From positions 16 through 64,015 of the forward strand of contig CBDCRA010000005.1 in the NCBI GenBank assembly GCA_965220845.1: 64,000 bases of DNA, given 5' to 3'. The stretch comes from Candidatus Multivorans sp. (lineage in GTDB: Bacteria; Acidobacteriota; Thermoanaerobaculia; Multivoradales; Multivoraceae). Of this stretch, positions 39,400-54,125 are shown piece after piece (positions within the stretch are counted from its first letter, which is position 1; the number at the start of each line of letters is the position of its first letter). A program made the position numbers and the translations under genes. Below the pieces are notes generated by a model, which was not told the DNA's origin, made no database searches, and saw only the letters and a list, made by a program, of their open reading frames with translations.

Positions 39400-39424
39400 G
39401 GATCGGCTAGAGGCCCCTGTCTAC

Positions 39425-39885
39425 AGCCCTTCGTAGGCTCGCGCCTCGCCGGTGTAGGTCCCGACACTAGGCTTCACGTTCTTCTCGATGAAGCCGTGTA
39501 CCGTATGGGCGTCGGTGTTCCTGACCACCTTCGCCTTGATCTTTCTGGTCCTGCGGTCCTTGATCCCGACGACGGCAGTCTTACTGGCCTTTCACCGACG
39601 CCCAAGTTCCCGGCGCTTCGAGGCAGGCGTGTTCTTTCACCTTTCGCCGATGAACGTCTCGTCGGCTTCTAAAGGACCCGCGAACAGCTCGATCTGGTCG
39701 GGCCAGTTCTCGCGAATGCGGTGGGCCGAGTCCACGCCGAGCGTGATCCGCAGGTCACGGTGGACCTTCATGGACGACTGACCCTTGAGACCTGTGATGA
39801 GCAGGTAGATCGTCAGCGCCCATTCCTGAGGATGCCACGGCGGAAGGCAGTCCAACTGCCGCGCCGGCCGAAGCGTCGTCAGCAC
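39425..39885 (-). pseudogene. IS1595-family (ISXO2-like) transposase remnant, truncated with in-frame stops
   Basis: ALTIYLLITGLKGQSSMKVHRDLRITLGVDSAHRIRENW ... EADETFIGER*KN..KRRELGRR*KASKTAVVGIKDRRTRKIKAKVVRNTDAHTVHGFIEKNVKP matches the IS1595 HTH + DDE-N region. Two in-frame TGA codons. Both ends are missing. Confidence 0.7.
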
Positions 39886-39888
39886 CCG

Positions 39889-41046: not shown

Positions 41047-41213
41047 GATTTGGCGGCTTTCACGGAGTAGAGCTTGGGGAAGCAGGTTCTAGGTGGTAGG
41101 GACTCGGCAGGGTTGGCGAGCTGTGGGATTCTAGGCCGTCTTCGCCTCGTACGTGGGGACCTTTAGAGCAAGAGATCTTGCGTGGTCAACAACTATCCTT
41201 GTACCCTCGACGG

Positions 41214-42725
41214 ATGCACAAGGTCCTCATCTCATGGATCGGCACCACGGATCTTCGCGCACCCGAGGAGGGCGCGGAGGTCGGCAGGGGGCCCGTCGCA
41301 CAGGCCCTCGAAGAGCTCCGCTTCGACGAGGCTCGCCTGCTGACGAACCATGAGCCGGAGACGGTCGAGCCGTACCGCTCGTGGCTTCGGGCCCGAGCCC
41401 CGGAAGTCCAGATTCAGGTAGCGCAGGAGGCCCTGAGCAGCCCGACGGACTTCGGAGAGATCTACGCTGCCGCTGTTGGCGCTTGCGGCGCCGTGGTGGA
41501 GAAGGCGCCGGTCGCCAGCTCGCTCACGTTCCACTTGAGCCCCGGTACACCCGCGATGGCGGCGATCTGGGTCATTCTGGCCAAGACCCGTTTCCCCGCG
41601 GAGCTCATCGAATCCTCCCGCCAGCACGGGGTCCGCGTCGCGTCCGTACCGTTCGACATCAGCGCGGACTTCCTTCCCGATCTCCTCCGCCGGCCCGACC
41701 GGGAACTAGAGCGTCTATCCGCCGGCCTGGCGTCCGAAGCGCCGGAGTTCGATGAGATCCTGCACCGGAGTGCGGCGATGAGACGGGTCATCCTGCGCGC
41801 TCGGCGGGTCGCCCCCCGCTCCGTACCCGTCCTGATCGAGGGAGAAACCGGCACGGGCAAGGAACTGGTGGCGAGAGCGATCCACCGCGCCAGTCCCCGT
41901 CGCGACCGGCCTTTCGTGGCGGTGAACTGCGGCGCCCTCTCGCCCGAACTCGTTGAGTCCGAGCTCTTCGGGCACGAGCGGGGCGCCTTCACCGGCGCCT
42001 CGGCGCGCCGCGACGGCCACTTCGTCGCTGCCGATGGTGGCACGCTCTTTCTCGACGAGATAGGCGAGCTTCCTCTATCCGCCCAGGTGAAGCTCCTCCG
42101 CGCCTTGCAGGAAGGGGAGGTCCTGCCCGTTGGAAGTTCTCGGCCGCGCTCCGTGAACGTCAGGCCGATCGCCGCGACCAACCGTTCCCTCCCGTCGGAA
42201 GTAGGAGCCGGTCGTTTCCGCGAAGATCTCTTCTACCGTCTGGCCGTCGCAGTTCTTCGACTGCCGTCACTCCGCGAACGGGCCGAGGACCTGGCGCTCC
42301 TGATCGACCGGCTCCTGGAACGGGTCAATCGTGAGAGCGAACAACAACCGGGTCAGGTGCACAAGAAGCTGTCTGCTGGCGCAAGGAACCTCCTGCTCTC
42401 GCACCCGTGGCCGGGAAACGTGCGGGAGCTTCAGAACACCTTGAGCCGAGCTGCCTTGTGGTCCTCGGAGGAGACTCTGACGGTGGACGATGTGCGCGAG
42501 GCGCTGCTGCCCGTCGCAGCGAGCGACCGGGCCGAGACTGTGCTGAATCGCCCTCTGGGCAACGGCCTCGACGTTCGGGCTGTCCTGGCGGGCGTGGCCC
42601 GTCACTATCTGGAGCGCGCCCTGGACGAAGCCGGAGGCAACAAGACGGAGGCCGCCCGACTCGTGGGGCTTCCCAGCTACCAGACGCTCACCAACTGGAT
42701 GAAGCGTTATGGTCTGACCCCGTGA
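41214..42725 (+). CDS. RtcR-like sigma-54-dependent transcriptional activator: N-terminal CARF-like domain + AAA+ sigma-54 interaction domain + C-terminal HTH
   Basis: N-terminus ([14 protein letters not shown] ... [32 protein letters not shown]) aligns by eye with the E. coli RtcR CARF region (...HITTGTHVAQICWFLLAEARYLPARLIQSS). Central [21 protein letters not shown] and ESELFGHE motifs. Fis-type HTH at the C-terminus. ATG 41214 (the track gives 41178). Confidence 0.8.
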
Positions 42726-42741
42726 TGGCACGCCGTTTGCT
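42726..42741 (+). promoter_or_regulatory. Sigma-54 (-24/-12) promoter TGGCACGCCGTTTGCT
   Basis: Exact match to the TGGCACG-N4-TTGCW consensus, with GG and GC separated by 10 nt. It begins one nucleotide after the regulator stop and ends about 34 nt before the hsdR-like start. Confidence 0.8.
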
Positions 42742-42774
42742 CTCCAGTCTCCTCGCATGTTCGAGGAAGCCCCG

Positions 42775-45516
42775 ATGACGCCGCGCGAGACCGAGGCGGA
42801 TGCCCGGATCGTGATCGACGACCTGCTGAAGCAGGCCGGCTGGAATCCGAGCGACAAGTCCATGGTCGCGACGGAAGCGCCGGCGGTCATGCCTGACCGG
42901 CCCGGCCCGCTGGTGGACCGCTACGGCGCCCGTCCGTTCGAGACGCACGCCCCCGCCTACGACCTCGTCGCCTCCGCCGGCGACTTCGGCCCGGACCGGC
43001 TCGTCGGCAAGGCCGGCGACGAGATCGGCTGGGCGCCCGTGCCAAGCTCGGTACATCTGACGCGCGACCACTTCGTAGCTCGCGTCGAGGGGCGTTCGAT
43101 GGAACCGGCGATCCCGGACGGGTCCTGGTGCCTGTTCCGGGCCGACCGGGGAGGAAGCCGCGAAGGCAAGCGGGTTCTCGTCTGGCACCGGGGCTGCACC
43201 GACCCGGCACTCGGTGGAGAGTTCTCGATCAAGCGCTACACGAGCAGGAAGGCCGGCAACGGCGACGGGACGTGGCGACACCGCGAGATCCGCCTGGAAC
43301 CGCTCAACCCGGATCCCGAGTTCCGCCCCCTCGTCTTCTCCCCGGAGGCCGAGGACGATCTGCGCGTGGTGGGTGAGCTCGTGGAAGTCCTCGACCTGGA
43401 GGAAGCCGGCGACGGCGCCGCGGCCGGTGGCGGACGGGCCGACTACGTCCTCTACGACGGCCGCGGCCGACCGCTGGCCGTGATCGAGGCCAAGCGGAAC
43501 GCGATCCACCCCTACGTGGCCAAGCAGCAGGCTCTCCCCTACGCGAAAGCGCTCGACGCGCCCTTCATCTTCCTCGCCAACGGCGAACAGACCTACTTCT
43601 GGGACTGGAAGAACGACGATGCCCGCGAGGTCGCCAGCTTCTTCTCGCAGCGCGACCTGGAACGGCTGGTCGAAGCCCAGGAGAACCGCAAGCCGCTCGC
43701 CACCATCGAGATTCCCGAGCACTACAGTCGCCAGGGCGAGATCCGCACCCTCCGCCCGTACCAGACGGACGCCATGCGGGCGCTCGACCACGCGCTGGAG
43801 CTCGGCAAGCGGCGCTTTCTCATCGAGCTGCCGACCGGCACGGGCAAGACGGATCTCACCTGTCTCTACCTGAAGCGGCTCTTCGAGGCAGGCTGGGTCG
43901 AACGGGTGCTCGTCCTGGTCGACCGGGAGCAGTTGGCCAAGCAGTTCCTGGAGGCGGTGCAGGACCTGCTCCCACAGCACTCCAGCTACTGGATGCGGTC
44001 GGGCATGGCGCGTCAGGAGCAGCAGATCACGGTTGCCTTGCTTCAGACGATGATCGGCCGGATCGAGGAATACACGGCCGGCTACTTCGACGTCGTGGTC
44101 ACCGACGAGTGCCACCGCTCGATCTACGACGGCTGGAAGCCCGCGCTGACCCGCTTCGAGGCGGTGCACGTCGGCCTGACCGCCACGCCGGCCAACTACA
44201 TCGAGCGCAACACCTACGACTTCTACCACTGCAAGCCGGGCAAGCCCGACTTCAGCTTTCCGATCCAGGACGCCTTCCGCGAGGGCTACCTGGCGCCGTA
44301 CTGCTTCGCGACCGGCATCACCGAACTGGTGGCCGAGGGCGCCGAAGTGGACGACGAGCACTACGACCCGGCCGCGTTCGAGAAGAAGTGGACCAACGAA
44401 GCCAGCAATCGCCTGATGATGAAGGAGTTCGACGAACTTGCCTGGGCGACGTTCGAGGAGTTGGCCCCGCAGCAGAACCCCGGCCCGGGCAAGTCGATCG
44501 TCTTTGCGATCAGCAAGCACCACGCCGCGCGTCTGGCCGAGTACCTCAACGAACTCCACCCGGAACACAAGGGACGCTACGCAAAGGTCATCACGTCCGA
44601 CGTACCGGATCCAGGTGCTCTGATCCGCCGGTTCAAGCACGAGCCCTACCCGCAAGTGGCCGTGAGCGTCGGCATGCTCGACACCGGCTTCGACTGCCGC
44701 GAAGTGCTCCACCTGGTGCTCTGCCGGCGGGTGCGCAGCCCCATCCTGTACCAGCAGATGCGTGGTCGCGGCACCCGCATGGCGCCCCACATCGACAAGC
44801 GGAAGTTCGTGATCTACGACTTTTTCCGCAACCACCAGTACTTCAACGACAGCGACACGGACGCATTCACGGGTGCCGCCGGGGGACATGCGCCCGCGAC
44901 TCCCGATAGTCCTTCGACGTACCGCGGCGACCTGGTGGAACTCGGTCTCGAGGACGAGTGGCTCGAAGCGGTCGGATACGTCGAGGTCGGTCCGGAAGGC
45001 GAACGGGTCGACAAGGAGAAGTACAAGAGCGATTGGCAGGAAGCGGTCCAGGCCCGAGTGGCCGACGACCCGCTGCTCCGCAAGGTGCGGGACGAAGAGG
45101 CGCTCGAGGCCGGCGAGGAAGAGGAACTCGCCCGGCGCCTGAACCGGCCGGAGCGCTACTTCAACGAGGACAACCTCCGCCGCGCCTACCGTGATCCGAG
45201 CGGAACGCTCGTTGATTTCATCCGCGCCGCTCTCGGCACGCTGCGCATCAAGAGCCGCGAGGAGAAGCTCGAAGAAGCGTTCCGCGCTTGGCTCGTGTCG
45301 CGTACGTTCACCCCGCGTCAGGCCGAGTACCTGAGTCTGCTGAAGAACCGGGGCATCGCCACCGGGCTCGTGCGCATCGAAGACCTGTTCGAGCCGCCGC
45401 TTTCGATTCTCGACGTCGCCGGCAAGGGAGTGGCTCTCTTCGGCGAGCAGGGTCTGAGTGATGTCGTGGACGACCTGAACGAAGGTGTCTTCCTGCCTGC
45501 GAAGCGGGCGAGCTGA
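42775..45516 (+). CDS. hsdR: Type I restriction enzyme R subunit (HsdR-like) with a LexA-like S24 peptidase domain inserted into the N-terminal PD-(D/E)xK nuclease region
   Basis: HsdR_N start motif (ARIVIDDLLKQAGWNP). Then about 190 aa of S24 fold (GRSMEPAIPDG Ser, FSIKRY Lys, a candidate A-G cleavage site in LVASAGDFG), then the rest of HsdR_N (ADYVLYDGRGRPLAVIEAKR). SF2 helicase motifs I (LPTGTGKT) and II (DECH) and a C-terminal domain. Probable start at ATG 42775 (SD GAGGAAG); the track gives 42757. Confidence 0.8.
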   Translation: MTPRETEADARIVIDDLLKQAGWNPSDKSMVATEAPAVMPDRPGPLVDRYGARPFETHAPAYDLVASAGDFGPDRLVGKAGDEIGWAPVPSSVHLTRDHFVARVEGRSMEPAIPDGSWCLFRADRGGSREGKRVLVWHRGCTDPALGGEFSIKRYTSRKAGNGDGTWRHREIRLEPLNPDPEFRPLVFSPEAEDDLRVVGELVEVLDLEEAGDGAAAGGGRADYVLYDGRGRPLAVIEAKRNAIHPYVAKQQALPYAKALDAPFIFLANGEQTYFWDWKNDDAREVASFFSQRDLERLVEAQENRKPLATIEIPEHYSRQGEIRTLRPYQTDAMRALDHALELGKRRFLIELPTGTGKTDLTCLYLKRLFEAGWVERVLVLVDREQLAKQFLEAVQDLLPQHSSYWMRSGMARQEQQITVALLQTMIGRIEEYTAGYFDVVVTDECHRSIYDGWKPALTRFEAVHVGLTATPANYIERNTYDFYHCKPGKPDFSFPIQDAFREGYLAPYCFATGITELVAEGAEVDDEHYDPAAFEKKWTNEASNRLMMKEFDELAWATFEELAPQQNPGPGKSIVFAISKHHAARLAEYLNELHPEHKGRYAKVITSDVPDPGALIRRFKHEPYPQVAVSVGMLDTGFDCREVLHLVLCRRVRSPILYQQMRGRGTRMAPHIDKRKFVIYDFFRNHQYFNDSDTDAFTGAAGGHAPATPDSPSTYRGDLVELGLEDEWLEAVGYVEVGPEGERVDKEKYKSDWQEAVQARVADDPLLRKVRDEEALEAGEEEELARRLNRPERYFNEDNLRRAYRDPSGTLVDFIRAALGTLRIKSREEKLEEAFRAWLVSRTFTPRQAEYLSLLKNRGIATGLVRIEDLFEPPLSILDVAGKGVALFGEQGLSDVVDDLNEGVFLPAKRAS

Positions 45517-45536
45517 GAAAGGGACGCTCGAGAACC

Positions 45537-47186
45537 ATGGACCACAGCCTGCGGCGCAAGCTCGACCGGATCACCGACATCCTCTGGGCGGGGGGCGTCA
45601 CGAACCCCGTCACCTACATCGAGCAGATCTCCTATCTCATCTACCTCAAGCTGCTCGACGAAGAAGAGGCCAACCGCGAACTGCGGGCGCGACTCGCCGG
45701 CGGCAACGGCGCGCGCCTCTTCCCCCTCCAGGCGGAGCGATACCGCTGGAGCAAGTGGCGGTTCAAGAGCGGGAACGACCTGCGCGACTTCGTGCGGGAC
45801 GAGGTCTTCCCCTACATGGCCTCGCTCGTGAAGGACGAGCCGCAGGTAGCCGGCTATTTCCGCGATGCCGTGCTGGAGATCACCGATCCCAACGTGCTCA
45901 AGCAGGTGATCGACGAACTCGACGGCATCGAGTTTCAGAAGCTCGGGCCGGACGTCAAGGGCGATGTCTTCGAGTACCTCCTGACGCATTTGGGCCAGTC
46001 GGCCTTGAACGGCCAGTTCCGCACGCCGCGCCAGATTCGGGCGTTCATGGTGCAGATGACGGACCCGGATCTCGGAGACACGATCTACGACCCCGCTTGC
46101 GGCACGGCCGGCTTCCTGATCGACGCCGTGGACCACATCCTCGCTCGCTACAGCGAGAACCCCGAGGAGGTCCCCATCTACGGTGAGGACTGGCTGGAGA
46201 AACGCGGGCAGACTCCGGAGGAAGCCAAGGCCGAGATCCCGAATCTCCAGACGTACCGCAAGGGAGCCGGTGACCTACTGCCGGATTGGAAACGGCTCGA
46301 AGCATCCATCCACGGCACCGACGTTTCCCGCCAGATGATGCGCGTCGCCGTGATGAACCTGGTGCTGCACGGCATCCGCGGTGCTCGCGTCAAGCGCGCC
46401 AACGTGCTCTCCGAGATGAGCGGGCTTACCGAGGACGACCTGCATCGGCAGTACAAGGTGATTCTCTCGAACCCGCCGTTTGCGGGCCAGATCCCAAGCG
46501 AGTCGGTCCGAGCCGATCTCCCGACCAGGTCGAAGAAGAGCGAACTCTTGTTCCTGTCCCTGATGATGCGCTCGCTCGCCCCCGGCGGACGCTGCGCCGT
46601 GGTGGTGCCGGAGGGCCTGCTCTTCGGCTCCACGAGGGCCCATCGGGAACTGCGCGAGAGGCTGTTGCACGAGTTCGAAGTGCTGGCGGTCGTCTCGCTG
46701 CCAGCGGGAGTGTTCAAGCCCTACGCGGGCGTCAAGACATCGGTGCTCGTCTTCCGGCGCCCCAGGACCGAGCTTGAAGACGGCGACGGCGCGACGCGAC
46801 AGGTCTGGTTCTACGAGATCCGGAACGACGGATACGACCCGGACAAGATCCAGCAAGGCGGGCGTCCCGAGACGCCGTTCGAGAACGACATCCCTGCTCT
46901 ACTGGCAGCTTGGGCCGCGTACAGCGGTGCGCGCTTCGAGGAGCCGCCTGGCGTCCATGTGGGGAGTGTTCTTCCCCCTGGGAGTGAAGAGCCTCGGTCG
47001 TGGTTCGCTCCTCTCGATCGCATCGCCGACAACGACTTCAGCTTGGCCGCTTCTCGCTACAAGCCCATCGTTGCCGAGGAGGTTCCACGAGAGGATCCGG
47101 CTCAGTTGATCCGAGAGGTTATGGCGATTGAAGAGAGGATCGCCTCGGGACTCGAAGGCCTTCTGGAAGAGGTCGAAGGATCGTGA
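45537..47186 (+). CDS. hsdM: Type I R-M N6-adenine DNA methyltransferase subunit (HsdM)
   Basis: HsdM_N region and NPPF catalytic motif (ILSNPPFAG). 549 aa. Confidence 0.9.
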   Translation: MDHSLRRKLDRITDILWAGGVTNPVTYIEQISYLIYLKLLDEEEANRELRARLAGGNGARLFPLQAERYRWSKWRFKSGNDLRDFVRDEVFPYMASLVKDEPQVAGYFRDAVLEITDPNVLKQVIDELDGIEFQKLGPDVKGDVFEYLLTHLGQSALNGQFRTPRQIRAFMVQMTDPDLGDTIYDPACGTAGFLIDAVDHILARYSENPEEVPIYGEDWLEKRGQTPEEAKAEIPNLQTYRKGAGDLLPDWKRLEASIHGTDVSRQMMRVAVMNLVLHGIRGARVKRANVLSEMSGLTEDDLHRQYKVILSNPPFAGQIPSESVRADLPTRSKKSELLFLSLMMRSLAPGGRCAVVVPEGLLFGSTRAHRELRERLLHEFEVLAVVSLPAGVFKPYAGVKTSVLVFRRPRTELEDGDGATRQVWFYEIRNDGYDPDKIQQGGRPETPFENDIPALLAAWAAYSGARFEEPPGVHVGSVLPPGSEEPRSWFAPLDRIADNDFSLAASRYKPIVAEEVPREDPAQLIREVMAIEERIASGLEGLLEEVEGS

Positions 47187-48454
47187 TGATGTGGCCGGAA
47201 CAGCCTCTAGGTGCTCTATGCGTCCCTACGGACCAACGTGACCCTCGACGAGCCCCCACGGACACGTTTCGCTACGTAGACATCGCCGGAATCGACCGGG
47301 CGTCCAAGACGATCAAGCCACCCCCGATACTCCAAGGCGCGAAAGCTCCAAGCCGGGCTCGGAAGGTCATTCGTGGGGACGACGTGCTCGTCTCCACCGT
47401 GCGGCCCAACCTAAACGCGGTCGCGCTAGTCCCAAAGGAACTCGACGGCGAGATCGCGTCCACGGGATTCTGCGTCCTTCGGGCGAATCGGCAGGTTCTT
47501 GAACCTCGATACCTCTACTACCGGGTCGCGGCTCCCGACTTCGTCGCTGAGTTGAGCTCGAAGGTCCGTGGTGCCAGCTACCCGGCGGTGTCAGACCGCG
47601 ACGTCAAGAACCTGAAGATCGGACTTCCCAGCGTTTCCGAGCAGCGCCGGATTGTCACTCTGCTCGATCAGGCCAACCGCCTCCGACAACTCCGGTCCGA
47701 AGCCGACGAGAGAGCAGAGCGAGTTCTGCCGGTTCTCCTGACGCGCATCCTGGGTCGTCCTGAGACGTGGCCAGGTGACTCGGGCTGCAAGCCCCTGGGC
47801 TCACTGGCGTCTTTCGTCAGTGGAGCGACCCCGCCCAAGTCAGTCGAGGGTTTCTGGCAGGGCGGCGTGCCCTGGGTGTCGCCCAAGGACATGAAGACGG
47901 ACTTCCTCTCGGACAGCCAGGACCATGTCTCAGAGGCTGCAGTCCAGGAAACCAACTTGAGGTTGATCGAGCGAGGTAGCACGCTTGTCGTCGTGCGGGG
48001 GATGATCCTCGCCCGCACTGTTCCACTGGCGATCAACTTGACTGCCGTGACAATCAACCAGGACATTAAGGCGCTCCTTCCGAAGAGGGGACCGATCAAT
48101 GGCACCTACCTCTGGGCGGCACTCACCGTGGCGAAGCATCAGTTGAGAGGTCTCGTCCGGACTGCGGGACATGGCACGCGGAAGCTCGACACACCCGACC
48201 TCATGCAGTTCTGGATTCCTCTTCCAACGCTCGATCAGATCCGACAGGTGAGTTCCGCTGTTGAAACTCATCGGCATCTCGGCGAGAGCCGGCAGAAGGG
48301 CGCGCTGGCGATCAACCGCCTTTTCCGGCTGCTCTTGAGCCGGGCCTTCAGCGGTTCTCTGACGTCCGTCTGGCGCGAAGGCCAAGCTGTGGAGCTACTC
48401 GAGGAGAGTTCGCGCGACCACTCTGGCTCCGGCCACATGGAGGGTCTGGCGTGA
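47183..48454 (+). CDS. hsdS: Type I R-M specificity subunit (HsdS), two target-recognition domains
   Basis: Two TRDs separated and followed by conserved coiled regions (RLRQLRSEADERAER ... NRLFRLLLSRAFSG). 4-nt overlap with hsdM. Confidence 0.85.
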   Translation: MMMWPEQPLGALCVPTDQRDPRRAPTDTFRYVDIAGIDRASKTIKPPPILQGAKAPSRARKVIRGDDVLVSTVRPNLNAVALVPKELDGEIASTGFCVLRANRQVLEPRYLYYRVAAPDFVAELSSKVRGASYPAVSDRDVKNLKIGLPSVSEQRRIVTLLDQANRLRQLRSEADERAERVLPVLLTRILGRPETWPGDSGCKPLGSLASFVSGATPPKSVEGFWQGGVPWVSPKDMKTDFLSDSQDHVSEAAVQETNLRLIERGSTLVVVRGMILARTVPLAINLTAVTINQDIKALLPKRGPINGTYLWAALTVAKHQLRGLVRTAGHGTRKLDTPDLMQFWIPLPTLDQIRQVSSAVETHRHLGESRQKGALAINRLFRLLLSRAFSGSLTSVWREGQAVELLEESSRDHSGSGHMEGLA

Positions 48455-50235
48455 GCCTTGCCGCCCTTCGGCTCGCCAACTTCAAGGCGTTCGGGCCATC
48501 TCAGCGGGTTCCGTTGCGGCCGATCACGCTCGTGTTCGGAGCCAACAGTTCTGGAAAGTCCTCGATACTGCATGCGATGGCACTCGCGCACCATGCGGTT
48601 GAGACAGGCGACCTCGATACACAAAGGACACGTGTGGGCGGCGAGTCCGTGGATCTGGGCGGCTTCCGCCAGTACGTGCATCGGGGACAACTCGACAGTC
48701 AAGTGGAGATGGCGTTCGAGCTGGATCCAGGGAAGCTCTCGGGGAAGCTGGCGAGTTTACTGGGAGCGGCCCGTGTGCCGCTCGTTGAGCTTGCGATCGG
48801 GGGCCGCTTCGCCTACTTGAGGGAAACGGTTTACGGGAGACGAGACCTCGACTGGGAAAGGGCCTTTGGCGGCGTCGGTGTCGAACGCTTCACGCTGGAA
48901 GTTGACGGCGCTTCGATGCTCTCGATGAGTACGCGCGTCGACGGTGACCTCAGGCTCGATCGGCTGGACCACGCGCATCCGGTGTTCCGTGAGATCTTCC
49001 GCGGGATTCTGGCCCTCGCCACGACGGCGCGTACGGTGCGGGAGGACGACTTCACCGAGCTGGCTCCCGTGCTGGACGCGCTGGCTCCGGACACGACAGC
49101 TCGTAGGGAGGGCCTGTTCCCTCGAATCGAGAATCCGAACGCCGAGAAGGTCGGGAGAAGCAACAGCCTCCTACCTGTCAGCAGCGGGCGCCGCCGGGAA
49201 GATCTGGCAGGGGCGGCGCGGCTCCTCTTGCCTGCCGTCCTGCACGATCTGGTAGGCGGCCTTTCGACCGCGCTAGAGGACGAGATTCGCCGGCTTCGCT
49301 ACTTGGGACCGCTGAGGTCCTATCCCCCGCGGCACCTGGCCTTCTCGCAGCACCATGACGCGAACTGGTTGGCGGGAGGCGGCTACGCCTGGGATGTTGT
49401 GCGCACGCGCAAGGACATCAGGGATCGCGTGAACCAATGGCTCGGGGACGCGGACCATATGAAGACGCCCTATGAACTGAAGGTTCGCGAACTGCTGCCT
49501 GCAGATACGCTCGCCCCCCAACTTGCAACTGGCCTTGCGGATTCGCTGAAGGACCTGACGCGAAGACTACTGGTGGAGTTGGAGGGTGACGGTCGGTCTG
49601 AGGCACTCTCGCTGGCGCTTGAGTCGGTCCGTCAGGAGATCGAGTGGGGATCTGTCGACGTCGGCGACTTGAGTGACATCGATGTCGGAGAGCTGGTTGG
49701 ATCGCTTCTCGACGCGGAGCCGACGAGCGAAGAGTGGGTTCAGAGAATCGTCGAAGCCCGCCGTGAGATCATCCAGGATCTGGTTCTGGTCGACAAGCGC
49801 TCCAACACTCCTGTGAGCCACCGCGACGTAGGAATCGGCGTGAGCCAGGTCCTGCCGGTGCTGGTCTCCGCCTACGCCTCTGCGGCGAAGCTCATCGCCA
49901 TCGAGCAACCCGAAATTCACCTGCATCCGGCCCTCCAAGCGGAACTTGGCGACGTGTTCCTTGAGTCGGCACTGGGCGAGTCCGCCAACCGGTTCCTCAT
50001 CGAGACGCACAGCGAGCACCTCATCCTGAGAATTCTGCGCCGCATCCGCGAAACGTCGGAGGGCGACCTACGGCCGGACGCGAGGCCGGTCAGACCCGAG
50101 GACGTAGCGGTCCTCTACGTTCAGCCAGGGCCGGAGGGCGCCGAGATCATCGAACTGCCGATCACGCCAGACGGCGAGTTCGAGCGTCGGTGGCCTGACG
50201 GGTTCTTCGCCGAGCGGGCGAAAGAGCTCTTCTGA
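48451..50235 (+). CDS. ABC/OLD-type AAA_21 ATPase with large insertion (DUF3696-like C-terminus); candidate abortive-infection ATPase (AbiLi/RloA-like)
   Basis: Walker A GANSSGKSS at the N-terminus. Walker B/D-loop/H-loop at the C-terminus (LIAIEQPEIHLHP ... IETHSEH). No TOPRIM domain. Start overlaps the hsdS stop. Confidence 0.7.
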   Translation: MSLAALRLANFKAFGPSQRVPLRPITLVFGANSSGKSSILHAMALAHHAVETGDLDTQRTRVGGESVDLGGFRQYVHRGQLDSQVEMAFELDPGKLSGKLASLLGAARVPLVELAIGGRFAYLRETVYGRRDLDWERAFGGVGVERFTLEVDGASMLSMSTRVDGDLRLDRLDHAHPVFREIFRGILALATTARTVREDDFTELAPVLDALAPDTTARREGLFPRIENPNAEKVGRSNSLLPVSSGRRREDLAGAARLLLPAVLHDLVGGLSTALEDEIRRLRYLGPLRSYPPRHLAFSQHHDANWLAGGGYAWDVVRTRKDIRDRVNQWLGDADHMKTPYELKVRELLPADTLAPQLATGLADSLKDLTRRLLVELEGDGRSEALSLALESVRQEIEWGSVDVGDLSDIDVGELVGSLLDAEPTSEEWVQRIVEARREIIQDLVLVDKRSNTPVSHRDVGIGVSQVLPVLVSAYASAAKLIAIEQPEIHLHPALQAELGDVFLESALGESANRFLIETHSEHLILRILRRIRETSEGDLRPDARPVRPEDVAVLYVQPGPEGAEIIELPITPDGEFERRWPDGFFAERAKELF

Positions 50236-50237
50236 CG

Positions 50238-51173
50238 GTGATTCGGGAGTACGCACTCGAACCCGAGATGGTAGCCAAGGCGGACCGAATCCTCGGTGGC
50301 CGCCTGCGCTCGGGTTTCAAGATGGGCAAGGGGAGGATCCTCGCGCGCTACCCGAAGAAGTGGAAGCGGCAAGTGTGGGATGCCTTCAACGACACCGGCG
50401 ACATCGACCGGACACGACTGGAAGTGCTTGTCAACGAACTCTTCGAGTTCGCCGCTGCCCGAGGCGAGGTCCACTGGGATCCGGATGCAACCTGCTGGCT
50501 CGACAACGCCGTGGTCGAGCATCAGCGTTTGCCGTTTCACGCGATCATCGCCCGATCGAACCCGGGGCGGCACTCGTACGTCGTCACCGCCCGGGCGGTT
50601 CTGGAGGGAACGGCGCCGCTATGGGCGGCGGTCGGCAGTTGCGTCGTCGAAAGGAAGGCCGATCTCATGGCCGACATGATCGCGCCGGTCCTCAAGAGAG
50701 GCTCGGTCCTCATGTTCGTGGACCCTCACTTCGGCCCCGAGAGGCCAAGGTACCGTCGCGCGCTCGAGTCCTTCCTCAAGCACGTGAAGGAGCGCACGGG
50801 AGCCCCGCCGAAGCGCGTCGAGGTCCTGACCAGCGCCGACAAGACAGGCTGCAGGTCGTTCTTCGAGACGGAATGCCAGGAGAGACTCCGCCAGTGCGTC
50901 CCGGTAGGAATGCGCGTCGCTATTCGCAGGCTCCGGGAGAAGCCGGGAGGCGAGGCGCTCCACAACCGCTATGTCCTGACTGAACTCGGAGGGGTACGCT
51001 TCGACTATGGCCTGGACGAGGGGAAACCGGGAACCACGGACGACCTCTCGTTGCTTGAGTACCACGTCTACGAGAAACGCTGGCGGCAGTACGTGGGAAA
51101 CGACGGAGCGCCTCCTCCGGCTTTCGACCAGGAGGGCGACCTGATCCAAGTAGTCGGGAGCCGCCTACTGTGA
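50238..51173 (+). CDS. Hypothetical protein, partner of the AAA_21 ATPase (possible RloB/AbiLii-like)
   Basis: 311 aa. Starts 2 nt after the ATPase stop. No confident motif. Family assignment is speculative. Confidence 0.5.
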   Translation: MIREYALEPEMVAKADRILGGRLRSGFKMGKGRILARYPKKWKRQVWDAFNDTGDIDRTRLEVLVNELFEFAAARGEVHWDPDATCWLDNAVVEHQRLPFHAIIARSNPGRHSYVVTARAVLEGTAPLWAAVGSCVVERKADLMADMIAPVLKRGSVLMFVDPHFGPERPRYRRALESFLKHVKERTGAPPKRVEVLTSADKTGCRSFFETECQERLRQCVPVGMRVAIRRLREKPGGEALHNRYVLTELGGVRFDYGLDEGKPGTTDDLSLLEYHVYEKRWRQYVGNDGAPPPAFDQEGDLIQVVGSRLL

Positions 51174-51595
51174 CTGCGACACCTTCAGGCCAGCGGACGT
51201 TGACGCGGGTAACCAACGAACTCCTCGGCCGCATGGTCCGCGCAATCGTCGACGAAGTGGACCCCGAGCAGGTCATCCTCTTCGGCTCGCGCGGCCGCGG
51301 CGACGCTTGCGTGAGCTCGGATGTCGACCTTCTGGTCATCGAGGCCGAACCCTTCGGACCCGGGCGCGGCAAGCACGAGGAGATGAACCGGCTGTATCGC
51401 GCACTCAGGGGCTTCCGCGTGCCGAAGGACATCCTCGTGTTCTCGAACGAGGAAGTGGAGTATTGGCGGGACTCCCTGAACCACGTCCTGGCGCGGGCGC
51501 TCCGGGAGGGAAGGGTGCTCTACGAGCGACCCGCAGGCGACAGTGACCGGCCAGCCAGACGAGGTTCCCGGGCGGCTCCCGAGGGAAACGCATGA
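51170..51595 (+). CDS. Minimal nucleotidyltransferase (MNT) antitoxin of a HEPN/MNT pair
   Basis: GS-x9-13-DxD motif (ILFGSRGRGDACVSSDVDLLVI). Confidence 0.85.
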   Translation: MTATPSGQRTLTRVTNELLGRMVRAIVDEVDPEQVILFGSRGRGDACVSSDVDLLVIEAEPFGPGRGKHEEMNRLYRALRGFRVPKDILVFSNEEVEYWRDSLNHVLARALREGRVLYERPAGDSDRPARRGSRAAPEGNA

Positions 51596-51993
51596 CCGCC
51601 GACCCGAAGTGCGCTCGAATGATGCTCGACTCCGCCGAAAGGGACTTGCGGTCCATGCGGCTTCTGGAAGAGGAGGGGCCGGAGGAGTCGTTCGGCTTTC
51701 ACCTCCAGCAGGCGGGGGAGAAGGCGCTCAAGGCATGGATCGCGGTCCTGGGCGGACTGTACGAACTCACCCACAGTCTTGAAACGCTGCTGGAACAGCT
51801 CGACGAGTGCGGCGCGGATGAAGTCGACGTCGATCATTTCCGCGGCCTCGCCGGTTACACGCCCTATGCGGTCGAGTTCCGCTATCGGGGGATCGACGAC
51901 GATACGGAACCGATCGACCGGGAGGCCGCCATCGCCCTGGTCGGCGATCTGCTGAAACACGTCGGCGCCGAGCTCGAGAAGGTAGAGGAGTAG
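51592..51993 (+). CDS. HEPN-domain protein (toxin of a HEPN/MNT pair)
   Basis: 133 aa. HEPN-like helices (GEKALKAWIAVLG ... THSLETL). 4-nt overlap with the MNT gene. Confidence 0.75.
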   Translation: MTADPKCARMMLDSAERDLRSMRLLEEEGPEESFGFHLQQAGEKALKAWIAVLGGLYELTHSLETLLEQLDECGADEVDVDHFRGLAGYTPYAVEFRYRGIDDDTEPIDREAAIALVGDLLKHVGAELEKVEE

Positions 51994-52038
51994 CGTCGCT
52001 CTCCGGGATGCCCGCGCTCACGCCCCGCGTTCGGCGGC

Positions 52039-54125
52039 TCATCCCGCGGCCGTTCCCGTCTCCACCGCTCTCGCCAGGCGATCCACCGTCGCCGCGGAAG
52101 CGGCGGCGCCCTTCATCCGAGGCGCGCAGTCGCGCAGCGAGTCCATCCACTCGACGTCCTCCGCATACTCGCGGAGCCGGCGCCGGTGGCCGGCGCGGGT
52201 CTTCGTGCAGACCAGGGTGTAGGGGCTGCCTTTCCTCTCGGTCTCGTGATCCAGGTCGAGGCGGTAGCCGTCGATCGTCCGATGGATGTGCTTGCGCCGA
52301 TCCTTCCGCACGCTGAAGCGGCCGACCCGCTTGTCGGGGTCCCGGCAGAACGCGAGCAGGGCGACGCAGTCCTCGCAGTCGCAGCGCACTTCGGCGGGCA
52401 TGGCCCAGTCGGTCGGCTCGGCGGGAACCTCGGAGCTGCGTTCCAGCAGAAAGTCGGCGGCCTGGCGCCAAAGTAGGGCGTAGGCCGAAGATCGGGCAAG
52501 CTCCTCGTCCTCGTGCATTCCCTCGAGCGCCGCCGGGAGCATTCGGCCGCGGGTCACGATGCGCGGATGGTCCTCCGCCAGACCAAGGAGGAAGTCGCCC
52601 GCCTCCTCCGCCCCGATCAGCGGCATGACGGCCGCCAGAGCCTCGTTCTCGGTGCCGTCGTACTTCGTCTTCACCGCGCGATGCAGGAAGTCCACGGTCT
52701 GCTCGGCGGCGCCGGCGGAGGCCAGCAGGCGGAGCATCGCGCCGCGATCCTGTTGCCGATAGTCGCGTTCGCCGAGCGGCCAGAGTTCGATCAGCCGCTC
52801 GATGACCTCCACGTCGCGTTCGCTGTCCGCGTCGCCCCGGCCCGTGATTCGCGATGCCGCCCAAACCACGGCCCCGTCGATGCCGCCGCGAACGAGCACG
52901 TCCACGGTCTTCTCGCGTGGCCAGACCACGAGCGCCGCTCTCCGATACATGTGTTCCAGGGTCGGGCCCTCGTTGCCGGTCGAACCCTCGAGTCGTCGAT
53001 CGTCCGGCTCGGCGTCGTCGAGGGCGCCCTCGGGAAGAAGTTCACCCTCGTTCAGGGGAATTTCGCCCAGATTCGGCCTGCTGCCATCCGTGGCCGCCCA
53101 CGAGTCCAGGACCTCCCAGCGATCGTGAACGTCGACCATCGTGGACTCGTCTTCCTCCACATTGTCCCAGTAGTCCATGACGAGGTCCGGCGTGCCGTAC
53201 TCGTGTATCCGAAGCACCGCGGCAAGGAACTCGCAGCCGGCACGCTCCGCCGCTTCCTGAAGCACTTCCGCCACGGTGGCGTCCGTGTTCTTGAGCGTCG
53301 CGAAGGACAGTCCGTCCTCGCTGTACTCGTGTTCGAGGAGCCAGACGATCTTGTCCGCGACTTCTTCGGAATCCTGCTCGACGCTCTCCGCTCGCCATTC
53401 CGCGAGGCACTCCGCCACGGGCGCCAGGAGGTCCGAGTAATCCGGCGCGGCCGGCCCGCGGCCGGCGGAGTCCAGGAACAGGTTGAAGACGAGCGAACCC
53501 GGTGGCCTTCGGTGACCGGCAGCACTTCGTGCGGACAGTCCGCGTAGAAGGCGGCGAACGCCAGTTCGGAGGGCTCGTCCGCGGTCATGTCGTGCGTGGT
53601 CTCGTCGTCGCCGTGGCGAACGACGATCTCGCCGCCGGCGCCCGTCGCCGGCAGCGACAGCGAGAGAGTCGCCACCATGCCGGGAACCTTCTCCGTGTCC
53701 CGATGCTCGGCAAAGAAGCCGCCGCGCCGGTAGACGAGCAGCTTGTAGAGCTCCGCGCCGAGCCGCTCGGCGGGCAGACCGAGGCCCTCCGCCACGAGTT
53801 CCATGATCTTCGCGAGCGAACCGGGCCAGGCTCGGCCCGAGAGGCTTACGTTTCGGGCATCGATCTGCCAGCAGTCGCGGACCGACGGGTCCACCAGTGT
53901 CCGCGTGCCCTTGCCGTAGGGCGCCCGCTCGGCCGCATCGGCCAAGGCCTCGATCTGGACCGGAGGAACAGGGAACGACAACTCGCCCACGCCTTTCACG
54001 ACGACGCGCGGCACGGGCAGAAACTCCCGCCCGCTTACGCAGTAGTTACCAGGGCGGTCGATGGACAGGAGCAGTTTCTCCAGCCGCTCGTGCCCTCGTC
54101 CGTACTCGATGCCTTGAACGCCCAC
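52039..54125 (-). pseudogene. 2OG-Fe(II) oxygenase N-terminal domain joined by an apparent 1-nt frameshift (~53493-53497) to a ~460-aa acidic Cys-motif C-terminal region
   Basis: Frame A (54125 -> ~53497) encodes a 2OG oxygenase (FFAEHRDTEK HxD; VVRHGDD; AFYADCPHEVLPVTEGHR). After the shift, frame B reads in-frame ...SLVFNLFLDSAGRGPAAPDYSDLLAPVAECLAEW... through to 52039. There is no stop codon in frame A near the expected domain end. Confidence 0.55.

What the first reader, a model, noticed from the sequence alone, without database searches (positions are those of the whole stretch)
48451..51173. AAA_21 ABC/OLD-type ATPase plus unknown partner embedded between hsdS and a HEPN/MNT pair (RloAB/AbiL-like restriction-linked module)
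A 594-aa ATPase lies immediately after hsdS. Its Walker A is at the N-terminus and its Walker B/H-loop at the extreme C-terminus, with an insert of about 440 aa and no TOPRIM domain. A coupled 311-aa protein of unknown fold follows. The position resembles the 'restriction-linked ORFs' (rloA/rloB, prrC) and AbiL (AAA_21 + RloB-like), but the partner is longer than typical RloB and I cannot place it.
Basis: inference. Interest (0 to 1): 0.65.

Follow-up and report, generated by a model that had tools for sequence, protein, structure and literature searches.

The report
ATPase–nuclease defence pair in restriction operon
Two tightly linked genes at the end of a restriction-enzyme operon encode an ATP-binding switch and a predicted nuclease that resemble two of the three parts of the 'Menshen' anti-virus system, and the operon lies behind a sigma-54 promoter and an RtcR-like activator, so it is probably an inducible anti-virus module that nobody has tested.

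Summary
A 594-aa ABC ATPase (48451-50235) and a 311-aa protein (50238-51173) lie between hsdS and an MNT/HEPN pair, joined by overlapping or near-abutting start and stop codons.

The RloAB/AbiL reading is only partly right. The ATPase belongs to the NsnB (Menshen) / HEC-03 / PDC-M55 group: it has a DUF3696 tail, an EQ Walker B and a GxG signature. The partner matches no Pfam, PADLOC or NCBIfam model. Its model (pLDDT 93) shows an N-terminal PIN-like domain with no invariant Asp and a C-terminal PLD-like domain with invariant D162 and H242-x-R244. That is the architecture described for NsnC with a PB-PLD1 effector. It is not a Toprim/RloB protein.

The ATPase abuts the partner in 77 of 80 loci from many phyla. 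A type I R-M system lies upstream in 31 of 68. No NsnA (DUF262) gene is present.

The main new point is that an RtcR-like CARF-AAA+-HTH sigma-54 activator (41178-42725) and a perfect sigma-54 promoter (42726-42741) head the operon. This activator recurs in 46 of 80 loci, and 39 of those 46 have a promoter site just past it, whether or not R-M genes intervene.

Verdict: a new variant of a known kind. Function is inferred, not tested.

The parts
41178..42725 (+). RtcR-like bacterial enhancer-binding protein: CARF-like N-domain, sigma-54 AAA+ domain with GAFTGA, and Fis-type HTH (515 aa)
   Evidence: Pfam Sigma54_activat 3e-68, AAA_lid_14, HTH_8, and a weak RtcR N-domain hit. PADLOC RtcR_PspF2--CARF_AAA_HTH E 1.4e-197 over the full length. 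NCBIfam RtcR 1.4e-109, below the equivalog cut-off. GAFTGA and Walker A are visible in the translation.
42726..42741 (+). Sigma-54 (-24/-12) promoter TGGCACGCCGTTTGCT, starting one base after the activator's stop codon and ending 15 nt before the hsdR ATG
   Evidence: It is the only zero-mismatch match to TGGCAC-N5-TTGCW in the 64 kb window. An equivalent site follows the activator in 39/46 related loci, against a background of 0.028 sites per kb.
42757..45516 (+). hsdR, EcoAI-like type I restriction subunit, with a LexA/S24-like domain inserted near the N-terminus. The true start may be ATG 42775, which is preceded by GAGGAAG.
   Evidence: Pfam ResIII, EcoEI_R_C, HSDR_N and Peptidase_S24. NCBIfam restrict_EcoAI 6e-73. 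Sequence.
45537..47186 (+). hsdM, type I methyltransferase
   Evidence: Pfam N6_Mtase 2.8e-48 and HsdM_N; PADLOC MTase_I 7e-137.
47183..48454 (+). hsdS, specificity subunit; its start overlaps the hsdM stop
   Evidence: Pfam Methylase_S; PADLOC Specificity_I 4e-56.
48451..50235 (+). NsnB-like ABC ATPase (594 aa): Walker A aa 30-37, large variable inserts, GxG signature, Walker B with EQ in place of DE (aa 481-487), H-loop, and DUF3696 tail (aa 549-593)
   Evidence: Pfam AAA_15, AAA_21 and DUF3696. PADLOC PDC-M55A 9e-43, NsnB 1e-41, HEC-03B 3e-35. EQ is present in 73/74 partner-adjacent ATPases. Variable segments are mapped.
50238..51173 (+). Partner (311 aa): N-terminal inactive-PIN-like domain (aa 1 to about 130) plus C-terminal PLD-like domain (aa about 131-311) with invariant D162/P163/F165 and H242-x-R244-Y245
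   Evidence: No Pfam, PADLOC or NCBIfam hit. Alignment A1. AF2 pLDDT 93.2. PLD-family top hits: SauUSI, TrmBL2, NucT-like, PPK C-domain. PIN-domain top hits for aa 1-130.
51170..51595 (+). MNT-type nucleotidyltransferase (antitoxin-like); its start overlaps the partner stop
   Evidence: Pfam Polbeta and NTP_transf_2. NCBIfam MntA 7e-6, below cut-off.
51592..51993 (+). HEPN-domain protein (toxin-like); its start overlaps the MNT stop. It is the last gene of the co-directional block.
   Evidence: Pfam HEPN 1.2e-14. The genes downstream are housekeeping and lie on the other strand.

Best explanation
The two genes form a Menshen-like NsnB/NsnC effector module that lacks the NsnA sensor. They are the conserved 3' cargo of an operon driven by an RtcR-like, sigma-54-dependent activator.

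Proposed mechanism (the functional steps are inferred):
1. The RtcR-like activator uses its CARF-like N-domain to sense an infection or RNA-damage signal. [quoted passage not shown] It then opens the sigma-54 promoter at 42726-42741.
2. This raises transcription of hsdR-hsdM-hsdS, the ATPase, the partner and MNT/HEPN.
3. The ABC ATPase binds ATP but probably hydrolyses it slowly, because Walker B reads EQ. It oligomerises, and its DUF3696 tails clamp the partner's inactive PIN-like domain and hold the partner in check.
4. The hypervariable inserts of the ATPase detect a phage component.
5. The partner's PLD-like HxR domain is then released or activated and degrades nucleic acid, which stops the infection.

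The type I R-M genes are an optional module inserted between the regulator and the effector pair.

Shown: the gene order, the coupling of the genes, the motifs, the predicted folds, conservation of the pair, and conservation of the activator and promoter.
For: Pair conservation: the ATPase C-terminus abuts the partner in 77/80 loci from Acidobacteriota, Latescibacterota, Binatia, Gemmatimonadota, Planctomycetota, several proteobacterial classes and others.

ATPase: it carries DUF3696, and its best PADLOC hits are PDC-M55A, NsnB and HEC-03B. The partner-adjacent ATPases tested from other loci give the same three top hits. It shows EQ in Walker B in 73/74 family members and a GIG signature. Published NsnB has EN and GxG (PMC12065111).

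Partner: pLDDT is 93. The C-domain top hits are PLD-fold proteins in two libraries: SauUSI prob 0.99, TrmBL2 0.93, NucT-like nuclease 0.96, PPK C-domain 0.82. D162 follows a beta strand and H242-N243-R244 precede a beta strand. This matches the published description of PB-PLD1, which has D/E after beta2 and HDR before beta5. The N-domain top hits are PIN domains, including PAE2754, the same structure cited for NsnC-N. There is no invariant Asp in aa 1-130.

Experimental precedent: HEC-03, a two-gene system of a related ABC ATPase plus a PIN protein embedded in another defence system, defends against phage and needs both genes.

Regulator: it carries the GAFTGA motif and matches PADLOC RtcR_PspF2 at 1.4e-197. 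The perfect sigma-54 site is unique in the 64 kb window. The activator is present in 46/80 loci, and 39/46 have a site with at most 1 mismatch within 500 nt of its end, 23 of them perfect. The background is 0.028 sites per kb, or about 0.015 expected per search window. In loci without R-M the promoter sits directly before the ATPase.

Sensor-like variability: ATPase segments aa 101-150, 201-250 and 351-450 are 28-40% identical to the L002 copy, while the L002 partner (91%), hsdR (96%), hsdM (93%) and hsdS (84%) stay close.

Defence context: other loci carry NACHT, SIR2 and kinase genes in the same slot. A plasmid copy has a WYL-domain gene in the activator's position and SIR2 plus DUF87 genes downstream. 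The published layout of RtcR homologue, then R-M, then terminal effector is described in PMC11090510. RtcR-like proteins linked to R-M were noted in PMC4012209.
Against: There is no experiment on this family.

The PLD motif is HxR rather than the canonical HxK. The nearest described relative, MIT_C of MITD1, has no established catalytic activity; this point rests on my own knowledge. The partner may therefore not be a nuclease.

The partner matches no NsnC, HEC-03 or PDC-M55 partner model, even at E=10.

NsnA, which defines Menshen, is absent.

The activator homologue was not found in 34/80 loci, although in some of these the 10 kb flank ends before its expected position.

A type I R-M placed wholly behind an inducible promoter is hard to reconcile with the need for constant self-methylation. 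Internal promoters were not detected, but the sigma-70 scan is uninformative in this GC-rich genome.

The ATPase-partner contact is borrowed from AlphaFold 3 models of other proteins.
Confidence: 0.55

Rival explanations
1. One reading: an RloAB/AbiL-type restriction-linked module, that is an AAA_21 ATPase working with an RloB-like Toprim nuclease.
For: The position after hsdS and the pairing of an ABC ATPase with a partner resemble rloAB and AbiL. PADLOC AbiLi hits the ATPase N-terminus at 5e-9.
Against: The partner has no RloB, DUF4276 or Toprim signal in Pfam, PADLOC or NCBIfam, tested on it and on 50 homologues. Its fold hits are PIN-like and PLD-like, not Toprim. The AbiLi match covers only the P-loop region (aa 3-73), whereas NsnB, PDC-M55A and HEC-03B score 1e-41 to 1e-35.
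Confidence: 0.04
2. A canonical three-gene Menshen system whose NsnA (ParB-DUF262) sensor is encoded elsewhere, or was missed.
For: The ATPase is NsnB-like and the partner has NsnC-like architecture. About 28% of published Menshen operons sit beside BREX, R-M systems or methylase genes.
Against: In the window the co-directional block from 41178 to 51993 contains no DUF262 gene. In a census of the gene immediately upstream of the pair, of 77 neighbours from the 80 loci, 20 are HsdS, 17 are sigma-54 activators and 3 are other ATPases. DUF262 is not among the 25 listed families. Published Menshen is defined by NsnA directly preceding NsnB.
Confidence: 0.06
3. The partner is not a nuclease. Its HxR PLD-like domain is a non-catalytic binding module, comparable to MIT_C of MITD1 or the PLD-like domain of TrmB-family regulators. 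The pair would then act by binding or sequestering, on membrane, nucleotide or DNA, or by regulating the adjacent R-M or HEPN toxin, rather than by cutting nucleic acid.
For: The canonical Lys of the HKD motif is replaced by Arg in every member. One of the two best PDB matches (TrmBL2) is a DNA-binding protein, not an enzyme. No Foldseek match reaches E<1e-3.
Against: D162, H242, R244 and D260 are strictly invariant across 51 sequences that share only 41-50% overall identity, which is typical of an active site. The other top matches are true nucleases, SauUSI and a NucT-like protein. The authors of the Menshen study predict PB-PLD1 with the same motif pattern to be an effector nuclease.
Confidence: 0.2
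4. The pair is a PrrC-like guard of the type I R-M system. It would be kept silent by the Hsd complex and fire when a phage anti-restriction protein inactivates Hsd.
For: The ATPase gene is translationally coupled to hsdS. R-M lies upstream in 31/68 loci. Two distinct type I families occupy the slot: about 65-96% identity to the window's HsdR/HsdM in one group of loci and about 30-36% in the other. Precedents among ABC-ATPase systems (PrrC, PARIS) are summarised in the text read.
Against: In 29 loci with the activator homologue no hsdM homologue lies upstream of the pair, and 20 further loci have neither. The pair therefore cannot depend on Hsd in general. There is no PrrC-like anticodon-nuclease signal.
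Confidence: 0.12

Closest known systems
Menshen (NsnABC), specifically NsnB plus the NsnC variants that carry the PB-PLD1 effector domain (Li et al., NAR 2025, PMC12065111)
   Same: The ATPase is an ABC ATPase with a DUF3696 helical tail, a Walker B in which DE is replaced by E plus an amide residue, and a GxG signature. The partner lies immediately downstream and has an N-terminal PIN-like domain lacking catalytic acids plus a C-terminal PLD-like domain, with an acidic residue after one strand and H-x-R before another. Both are often found beside R-M systems.
   Different: There is no NsnA (ParB-DUF262 plus ParBDB) gene. An RtcR-like sigma-54 activator and promoter occupy the 5' position instead. 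The ATPase is much longer (594 aa against a 345-position NsnB model) because of large variable inserts. Walker B reads EQ, not EN, and the motif is HNR, not HDR. The partner is not detected by any PADLOC Nsn model.
HEC-03 (Payne et al., bioRxiv 10.1101/2024.01.29.577857), a validated two-gene system embedded in Hma
   Same: It is a two-gene module of a related ABC ATPase (the PADLOC model scores 3e-35) plus a protein with a PIN-fold domain. It is nested inside another defence system, and it needs no DUF262 sensor.
   Different: The HEC-03 partner is described as a VapC-like PIN protein. Here the PIN-like domain lacks an invariant Asp and is fused to a PLD-like domain. The host system is type I R-M, not Hma. 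The partner does not match the HEC-03 partner model.
RtcR-headed defence superoperons that end in CoCoNuT systems (Bell et al., eLife 2024, PMC11090510), and the RtcR-like regulators linked to R-M (Makarova et al. 2014, PMC4012209)
   Same: A CARF-AAA+-HTH RtcR homologue sits at the 5' end. Co-directional defence genes, including type I R-M, lie in the middle. A dedicated effector system sits at the 3' end.
   Different: The terminal effector here is an NsnB/NsnC-like pair, not a McrBC-derived CoCoNuT. Those papers do not mention ABC, DUF3696 or Menshen components. Here the sigma-54 promoter itself is identified and shown to be conserved.
RloAB / AbiL and PrrC (restriction-linked ABC-ATPase modules)
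   Same: An ABC-type ATPase gene is embedded in or appended to a type I R-M operon, with a presumed back-up defence role.
   Different: The partner is not a Toprim (RloB) protein and the ATPase carries no anticodon-nuclease domain. The pair also occurs without any R-M.

Membership tests
Menshen (NsnABC) | An NsnA gene (ParB-DUF262 plus ParBDB) immediately upstream of the ATPase | tested here: not met
   The gene upstream of the ATPase is hsdS, and there is no DUF262 in the block 41178-51993. Across 77 upstream neighbours, 20 are HsdS and 17 are sigma-54 activators; DUF262 is not among the listed families.
Menshen (NsnABC) | NsnB: an ABC (AAA_15/AAA_21) ATPase with a C-terminal DUF3696 tail | tested here: met
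   Pfam AAA_15 1.2e-18, AAA_21 1.5e-17, DUF3696 25.9 bits against a cut-off of 22. PADLOC NsnB 1.3e-41.
Menshen (NsnABC) | NsnB motif variants: Walker B DE replaced (EN), SGG replaced by GxG, Q motif replaced by Arg | tested here: inconclusive
   Walker B is EQ in 73/74 family members. The signature reads VGIGVSQ, which is GxG. The Q-loop position was not located.
Menshen (NsnABC) | NsnC N-terminal inactive PIN-like domain | tested here: inconclusive
   The aa 1-130 model (pLDDT 91) gives PIN domains as the recurring best hits: 3ix7 prob 0.85, PAE2754 TM 0.52-0.57, Chp1, SMG6. All have E>=0.099. There is no invariant Asp in aa 1-130.
Menshen (NsnABC) | NsnC C-terminal effector domain of a described class (here PB-PLD1: D/E after beta2, HDR before beta5) | tested here: inconclusive
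   PLD-fold top hits appear in two libraries, with prob 0.82-0.99 and E 5e-3 to 2e-2. The motif positions agree (D162; H242-N243-R244). A direct comparison with PB-PLD1 or MIT_C sequences was not possible.
Menshen (NsnABC) | Partner recognised by NsnC or NsnA profile models | tested here: not met
   No PADLOC hit at E<=10. The two paralogous partners tested gave no PADLOC hit at E<=0.001.
RloAB / AbiL | Partner is an RloB-type (PF13707/DUF4435-like) Toprim protein | tested here: not met
   No Pfam or PADLOC hit for the partner or for 50 homologues. The fold hits are PIN-like and PLD-like.
RloAB / AbiL | ATPase best matched by AbiLi/RloA-type models | tested here: not met
   AbiLi scores 5e-9 over aa 3-73 only, against NsnB, PDC-M55A and HEC-03B at 1e-41 to 1e-35.
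HEC-03 | ABC ATPase of the HEC-03 type | tested here: met
   PADLOC HEC-03B 3.1e-35, three stretches.
HEC-03 | Partner is the HEC-03 PIN-domain protein | tested here: not met
   No PADLOC hit for the partner. There is only a remote PIN-like fold.
Phospholipase D (HKD) superfamily | HxK(x)4D catalytic motif | tested here: not met
   The invariant motif is H242-N-R244-Y-[IV]-L-T-[DE], that is HxR(x)4[DE], so Lys is replaced by Arg in all 51 sequences. Pfam PLDc_2 matches only 1/51 members, at E 0.16.
Phospholipase D (HKD) superfamily | PLD fold | tested here: inconclusive
   The top Foldseek hits are PLD-fold proteins (SauUSI 0.99, TrmBL2 0.93, NucT-like 0.96, PPK C-domain 0.82), but none reaches E<1e-3. 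That these hit domains have the PLD fold rests on my own knowledge.
RtcR-like CARF-AAA+-HTH activators (PADLOC RtcR_PspF2) | CARF-like N-domain, sigma-54 AAA+ domain with GAFTGA, and C-terminal HTH | tested here: met
   PADLOC 1.4e-197 over the full length. Pfam Sigma54_activat, AAA_lid_14, HTH_8 and a weak RtcR hit. GAFTGA is present.
RtcR proper (regulator of rtcBA) | Reaches the NCBIfam equivalog cut-off and lies next to rtcA/rtcB | tested here: not met
   367 bits against a cut-off of 650. The neighbours are hsdR and an unassigned ORF, with no RtcA or RtcB hit.
Sigma-54-dependent promoter | -24 GG and -12 GC elements matching TGGCAC-N5-TTGCW at correct spacing, upstream of the regulated gene | tested here: met
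   A zero-mismatch site at 42726-42741, unique in 64 kb, and conserved in 39/46 loci.
Sigma-54-dependent promoter | rpoN- and activator-dependent transcription start | not testable with these tools
   This needs 5' end mapping in wild type against rpoN and activator mutants.
HEPN/MNT type VII toxin-antitoxin | Adjacent MNT nucleotidyltransferase and HEPN genes | tested here: met
   Pfam NTP_transf_2/Polbeta and HEPN, with a 4-nt overlap. NCBIfam MntA scores below cut-off.

The most novel reading that the evidence does not exclude
The RtcR-like activator, the sigma-54 promoter and the NsnB/NsnC-like pair form a distinct, widespread three-component defence system. In it a transcriptional CARF sensor takes the place of the DNA-sensing NsnA of Menshen. 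Whole R-M systems, STAND NTPases or SIR2 genes can be inserted between regulator and effector, so that restriction itself becomes inducible by an RNA-damage or infection signal. Because the host genome might be under-methylated when induction occurs, the operon could act as an echeloned immune response with suicide potential.
Probability: 0.25. Interest if true: 0.75.

Novelty: new variant of a known kind. Interest (0 to 1): 0.55.

Why it matters
The partner family is large (about 2,900 clusters at 50% identity) and has no model in Pfam, PADLOC or NCBIfam, so current defence-finding tools would report only the R-M genes here. Recognising the partner as an NsnC-like PIN-plus-PLD effector tied to an NsnB-like ATPase would extend the Menshen/HEC-03 group to a two-gene form.

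The regulation is explicit and testable. A perfect sigma-54 promoter, conserved across phyla, directly follows an RtcR-like CARF activator. This gives a concrete handle on two open questions: what RtcR-like regulators sense outside RNA repair, and whether some R-M systems are induced rather than constitutive.

The localised hypervariability of the ATPase inserts also points to where phage recognition may occur.

Tried and rejected
Searches that gave nothing useful:
- A profile search of the partner family against PDB sequences found nothing meaningful (best E 1.1).
- Pfam on all 51 aligned members at E<=10 gave only scattered noise, with one PLDc_2 hit at 0.16.
- The exhaustive representative search returned only full-length family members among the 150 listed. 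It did not reach MIT_C, BrxL or other PLD relatives.
- The Menshen paper has no supplementary text held, so no direct comparison with PB-PLD1 sequences was possible.
- A search for an upstream activator-binding repeat in the last 300 nt of the activator gene found nothing convincing.
- The sigma-70 and terminator scan of 40900-52300 found no promoter-like site and fewer terminator-like sites than shuffles. It says nothing about internal promoters.
- There is no tRNA gene next to the island.
- There is no homologue of the partner in the phage collection.

Readings rejected:
- MADS: NCBIfam MAD3 scores 21 bits against a cut-off of 420.
- Gabija, OLD and PARIS: only P-loop-level hits and no Toprim domain.
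- PrrC: no anticodon-nuclease signal.

Full report
**1. Observation.**
The + strand carries a tightly packed, co-directional block:
- a 515-aa ORF at 41178-42725
- hsdR at 42757-45516
- hsdM at 45537-47186
- hsdS at 47183-48454
- the 594-aa ATPase at 48451-50235
- the 311-aa partner at 50238-51173
- an MNT nucleotidyltransferase at 51170-51595
- a HEPN protein at 51592-51993

Pfam and PADLOC confirm the R-M subunits, the MNT and the HEPN. The ATPase GTG overlaps the hsdS stop (GTGA). The partner GTG lies 2 nt after the ATPase stop. The partner stop overlaps the MNT start. Downstream of the HEPN gene the genes are housekeeping (sulfatase, 2OG oxygenase, homogentisate dioxygenase) and mostly on the other strand.

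**2. The ATPase.**
Walker A (GANSSGKS) is at aa 30-37 and Walker B (IAIEQPE) at aa 481-487, followed by an H-loop (THSEH, read from the translation). There is no Toprim domain.

The best PADLOC matches are PDC-M55A (9e-43), NsnB of Menshen (1e-41) and HEC-03B (3e-35). AbiLi, OLD, GajA and AriA match only the P-loop or Walker B regions. The partner-adjacent ATPases tested from other loci give the same three top hits.

In 73 of 74 family members Walker B reads E-Q where ABC ATPases have D-E. The signature motif is G-I-G. The published description of NsnB reports DE replaced by EN and SGG replaced by GxG (PMC12065111). A Gln at the catalytic-Glu position is the classic substitution that allows ATP binding but slows hydrolysis. 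That is established knowledge about ABC ATPases; its application here is inference.

Compared with the closest relative, L002, the R-M genes are 84-96% identical and the partner 91%. Three segments of the ATPase (aa 101-150, 201-250, 351-450) drop to 28-40% identity, while the ABC core stays at 82-100%. Such localised hypervariability is what one expects of a surface that recognises a changing target.

**3. The partner.**
It has no hit in Pfam, PADLOC or NCBIfam, even at E=10. Pfam scans of 50 homologues give nothing either. It is nevertheless a large family: 296 clusters at 90% identity and 2,875 clusters at 50% identity with E<=1e-3, almost all about 300 aa.

The alignment shows invariant D162-P163-x-F165 (FVDPHF), H242-x-R244-Y245 (LHNRY[IV]LT[DE]) and G258-L259-D260.

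The AlphaFold2 model is confident (pLDDT 93.2) and has two alpha/beta domains.
- *Whole model.* It finds PLD-fold proteins as its best matches. In the PDB these are the SauUSI restriction endonuclease (prob 0.99, 165 columns) and TrmBL2 (0.93). In BFVD they are a NucT-like nuclease (0.96) and a polyphosphate-kinase C-domain (0.82). That the matched parts of these proteins have the PLD fold rests on my own knowledge.
- *N-domain alone.* The model of aa 1-130 (pLDDT 91) repeatedly finds PIN domains: 3ix7, PAE2754 (1v8o/1v8p, TM 0.52-0.57), Chp1 and SMG6.

None of these matches reaches E<1e-3, so the fold assignments are remote. No Asp is invariant in aa 1-130, so the canonical PIN acidic tetrad is not conserved.

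**4. Conservation and context.**
A scan of one genome per species returned 80 loci from Acidobacteriota, Latescibacterota, Binatia, Gemmatimonadota, Planctomycetota, several proteobacterial classes and others. The window is closest to Candidatus Multivorans and Thermoanaerobaculia genomes.

| Feature | Count |
|---|---|
| ATPase homologue ends directly before the partner | 77 of 80 loci |
| hsdM homologue upstream, among loci with at least 8 kb of upstream sequence | 31 of 68 loci |

Two different type I families occupy that position: about 65-96% identity to the window's HsdR/HsdM in one group of loci, and about 30-36% in the other.

Elsewhere the slot between hsdS and the ATPase holds a 1,506-aa NACHT-type NTPase, a SIR2-like protein, a further AAA_21 ATPase or a protein kinase. 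Several loci carry two ATPase-partner pairs in tandem. On a Methylocella plasmid the pair follows hsdRMS and precedes SIR2 and DUF87 genes. On a Deinococcus plasmid it lies beside McrBC-like genes. RefSeq names the pair only 'AAA family ATPase' and 'hypothetical protein'.

No NsnA is present. In a census of the gene immediately upstream of the pair, 20 of 77 are HsdS, 17 are sigma-54 activators and 3 are other ATPases. DUF262 is not among the 25 listed families.

**5.
The 515-aa ORF upstream of hsdR is a bacterial enhancer-binding protein.
- Pfam: Sigma54_activat 3e-68, AAA_lid_14, HTH_8, and a weak RtcR N-domain hit.
- PDB: strong matches to ZraR, NifA, FleQ, NtrC1 and PspF.
- Sequence: the GAFTGA motif is present.
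- PADLOC: RtcR_PspF2--CARF_AAA_HTH at E 1.4e-197 over its full length.
- NCBIfam: RtcR is the best family, but below the equivalog cut-off.

No rtcA or rtcB gene is adjacent.

Directly after its stop codon lies TGGCACGCCGTTTGCT (42726-42741). This is a zero-mismatch sigma-54 -24/-12 consensus and the only one in 64 kb. With a start site expected about 10 nt downstream of the -12 element, the hsdR ATG at 42757 leaves almost no leader. ATG 42775, preceded by GAGGAAG, may be the real start. That is inference.

| Finding across the 80 loci | Count |
|---|---|
| Homologue of this activator (E<1e-60) present | 46 |
| ...co-directional upstream | 39 |
| ...divergent | 6 |
| ...downstream | 1 |
| Of the 46, a sigma-54 site with at most 1 mismatch within 500 nt of the activator's end | 39 |
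| ...of which perfect | 23 |

Many of these sites lie within 3-25 nt of the activator's end. The background is 84 sites in 3.0 Mb of both strands, or 0.028 per kb, which gives about 0.015 expected per search window.

In loci without R-M the promoter sits immediately before the ATPase. In four tandem loci (L017, L023, L024, L027) a second sigma-54-like site precedes the second ATPase. The conserved unit is therefore activator, promoter and ATPase-partner pair, with R-M and other defence genes as optional inserts.

**6. Relation to the literature.**
- Makarova et al. [quoted passage not shown]
- Bell et al. (2024) described superoperons in which an RtcR homologue heads co-directional defence genes, including type I R-M, that end in a CoCoNuT system. 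They proposed sensing of RNA fragments with cyclic-phosphate ends (PMC11090510). They do not mention ABC, DUF3696 or Menshen components.
- Payne et al. (2024) showed that HEC-03, a related ABC ATPase plus a PIN protein embedded in Hma, protects against phage and needs both genes.
- Li et al. (2025) predicted that paired DUF3696 tails of an NsnB dimer clamp the PIN-like domain of NsnC.

I found no paper that describes this partner family or its link to an RtcR-like activator. The library searched is incomplete.

**7. Most likely mechanism.**
- *Shown:* gene order and coupling, motifs, predicted folds, conservation of the pair, and conservation of the activator and promoter.
- *Inferred:* the CARF-like domain senses an infection or RNA-damage signal and switches on sigma-54 transcription. 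The ATPase, as an ATP-bound oligomer, holds the partner through contact between the DUF3696 tails and the PIN-like domain. The variable inserts detect a phage component. The PLD-like HxR domain then degrades nucleic acid.

The main uncertainties are four. HxR PLD-like domains may not be catalytic. Nothing shows what the CARF domain binds. It is unclear how a type I R-M behind an inducible promoter keeps the host methylated. All fold matches are remote.

**8. Verdict.**
The finding is real. Its general flavour, a restriction-linked ATPase module, is right, but the specific RloAB/AbiL assignment is wrong. The pair is best described as an NsnB/NsnC-like (Menshen- and HEC-03-related) module without NsnA, under RtcR-like sigma-54 control. 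That makes it a new variant of a known kind, widespread, unannotated and experimentally tractable.

Noticed in passing
window 43051-43383 (HsdR aa 99-209): HsdR carries a LexA/UmuD-type Peptidase_S24 domain (27.2 bits against a cut-off of 23.3). The Ser and Lys motifs are intact (GRSMEP, FSIKRY), and an Ala-Gly (SAGD) lies upstream. The domain sits between the first conserved HSDR_N element (aa about 7-35) and the rest of that domain (aa 226-288). Some homologues lack it: the tblastn alignment starts at about aa 215-226 in L005, L028, L029, L034, L048 and L049. A self-cleaving domain inside a restriction subunit could tie restriction to RecA or SOS status.
   Followed up: partly
window 43183-43198; same relative position in L002, L004, L011, L012, L014: A second sigma-54-like site with one mismatch (TGGCACCGGGGCTGCA) lies 457 nt downstream of the first, inside hsdR. 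It is conserved in several relatives. It falls in the S24 coding region (VWHRGC), so the conservation may simply reflect the protein sequence.
   Followed up: no
window 51170-51993; L011 5708-6422, L028 4802-5498, L054 5542-6256; L006, L012, L015, L018 at about 14.7-17.9 kb: The MNT/HEPN cassette changes position between loci. It follows the partner in the window, L002 and L014. It lies between hsdM and hsdS in L011, L028 and L054. It lies 5-7 kb downstream in four other loci. It behaves as an independent mobile toxin-antitoxin cassette rather than part of the pair.
   Followed up: partly
L017, L021, L023, L024, L027, L031, L032, L035, L056, L065: These loci carry tandem duplications: one activator followed by two ATPase-partner pairs. 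The second ATPase is often much longer (656-830 aa). In L017, L023, L024 and L027 the second pair has its own sigma-54-like site 18-30 nt upstream.
   Followed up: partly
L082 (Methylocella tundrae plasmid NZ_LR536452.1) 298-13334: In this locus a WYL-domain protein occupies the 5' position that the RtcR-like activator has elsewhere. It is followed by hsdR-hsdM-hsdS, the ATPase and the partner, and then SIR2 and DUF87 genes. Two different ligand-binding regulator families appear to have been recruited to the same operon type.
   Followed up: no
L006 3522-8042, L010 3534-8048, L018 3611-8131; L015 2201-6019; L034 5597-6481: Large extra genes are embedded between hsdS and the ATPase: a 1,506-aa protein with weak NACHT, AAA_16 and HEAT hits, a 1,272-aa SIR2-like protein, and a Ser/Thr protein kinase. 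This suggests the slot accepts varied defence cargo.
   Followed up: partly
L040 8164, L044 8170 (Binatia): A sigma-54 site faces the ATPase as in sister loci (L025, L042, L055, L057), but the divergent activator gene is replaced by a sodium:solute symporter gene. The activator may act in trans or may have been lost.
   Followed up: no
window 39000-41050: GC content falls to 0.58-0.60, against 0.65-0.70 around it, just upstream of the activator gene. The 385-aa minus-strand ORF there (39889-41046) has no Pfam or NCBIfam hit. This may be the edge of the acquired island. No tRNA gene is nearby.
   Followed up: partly
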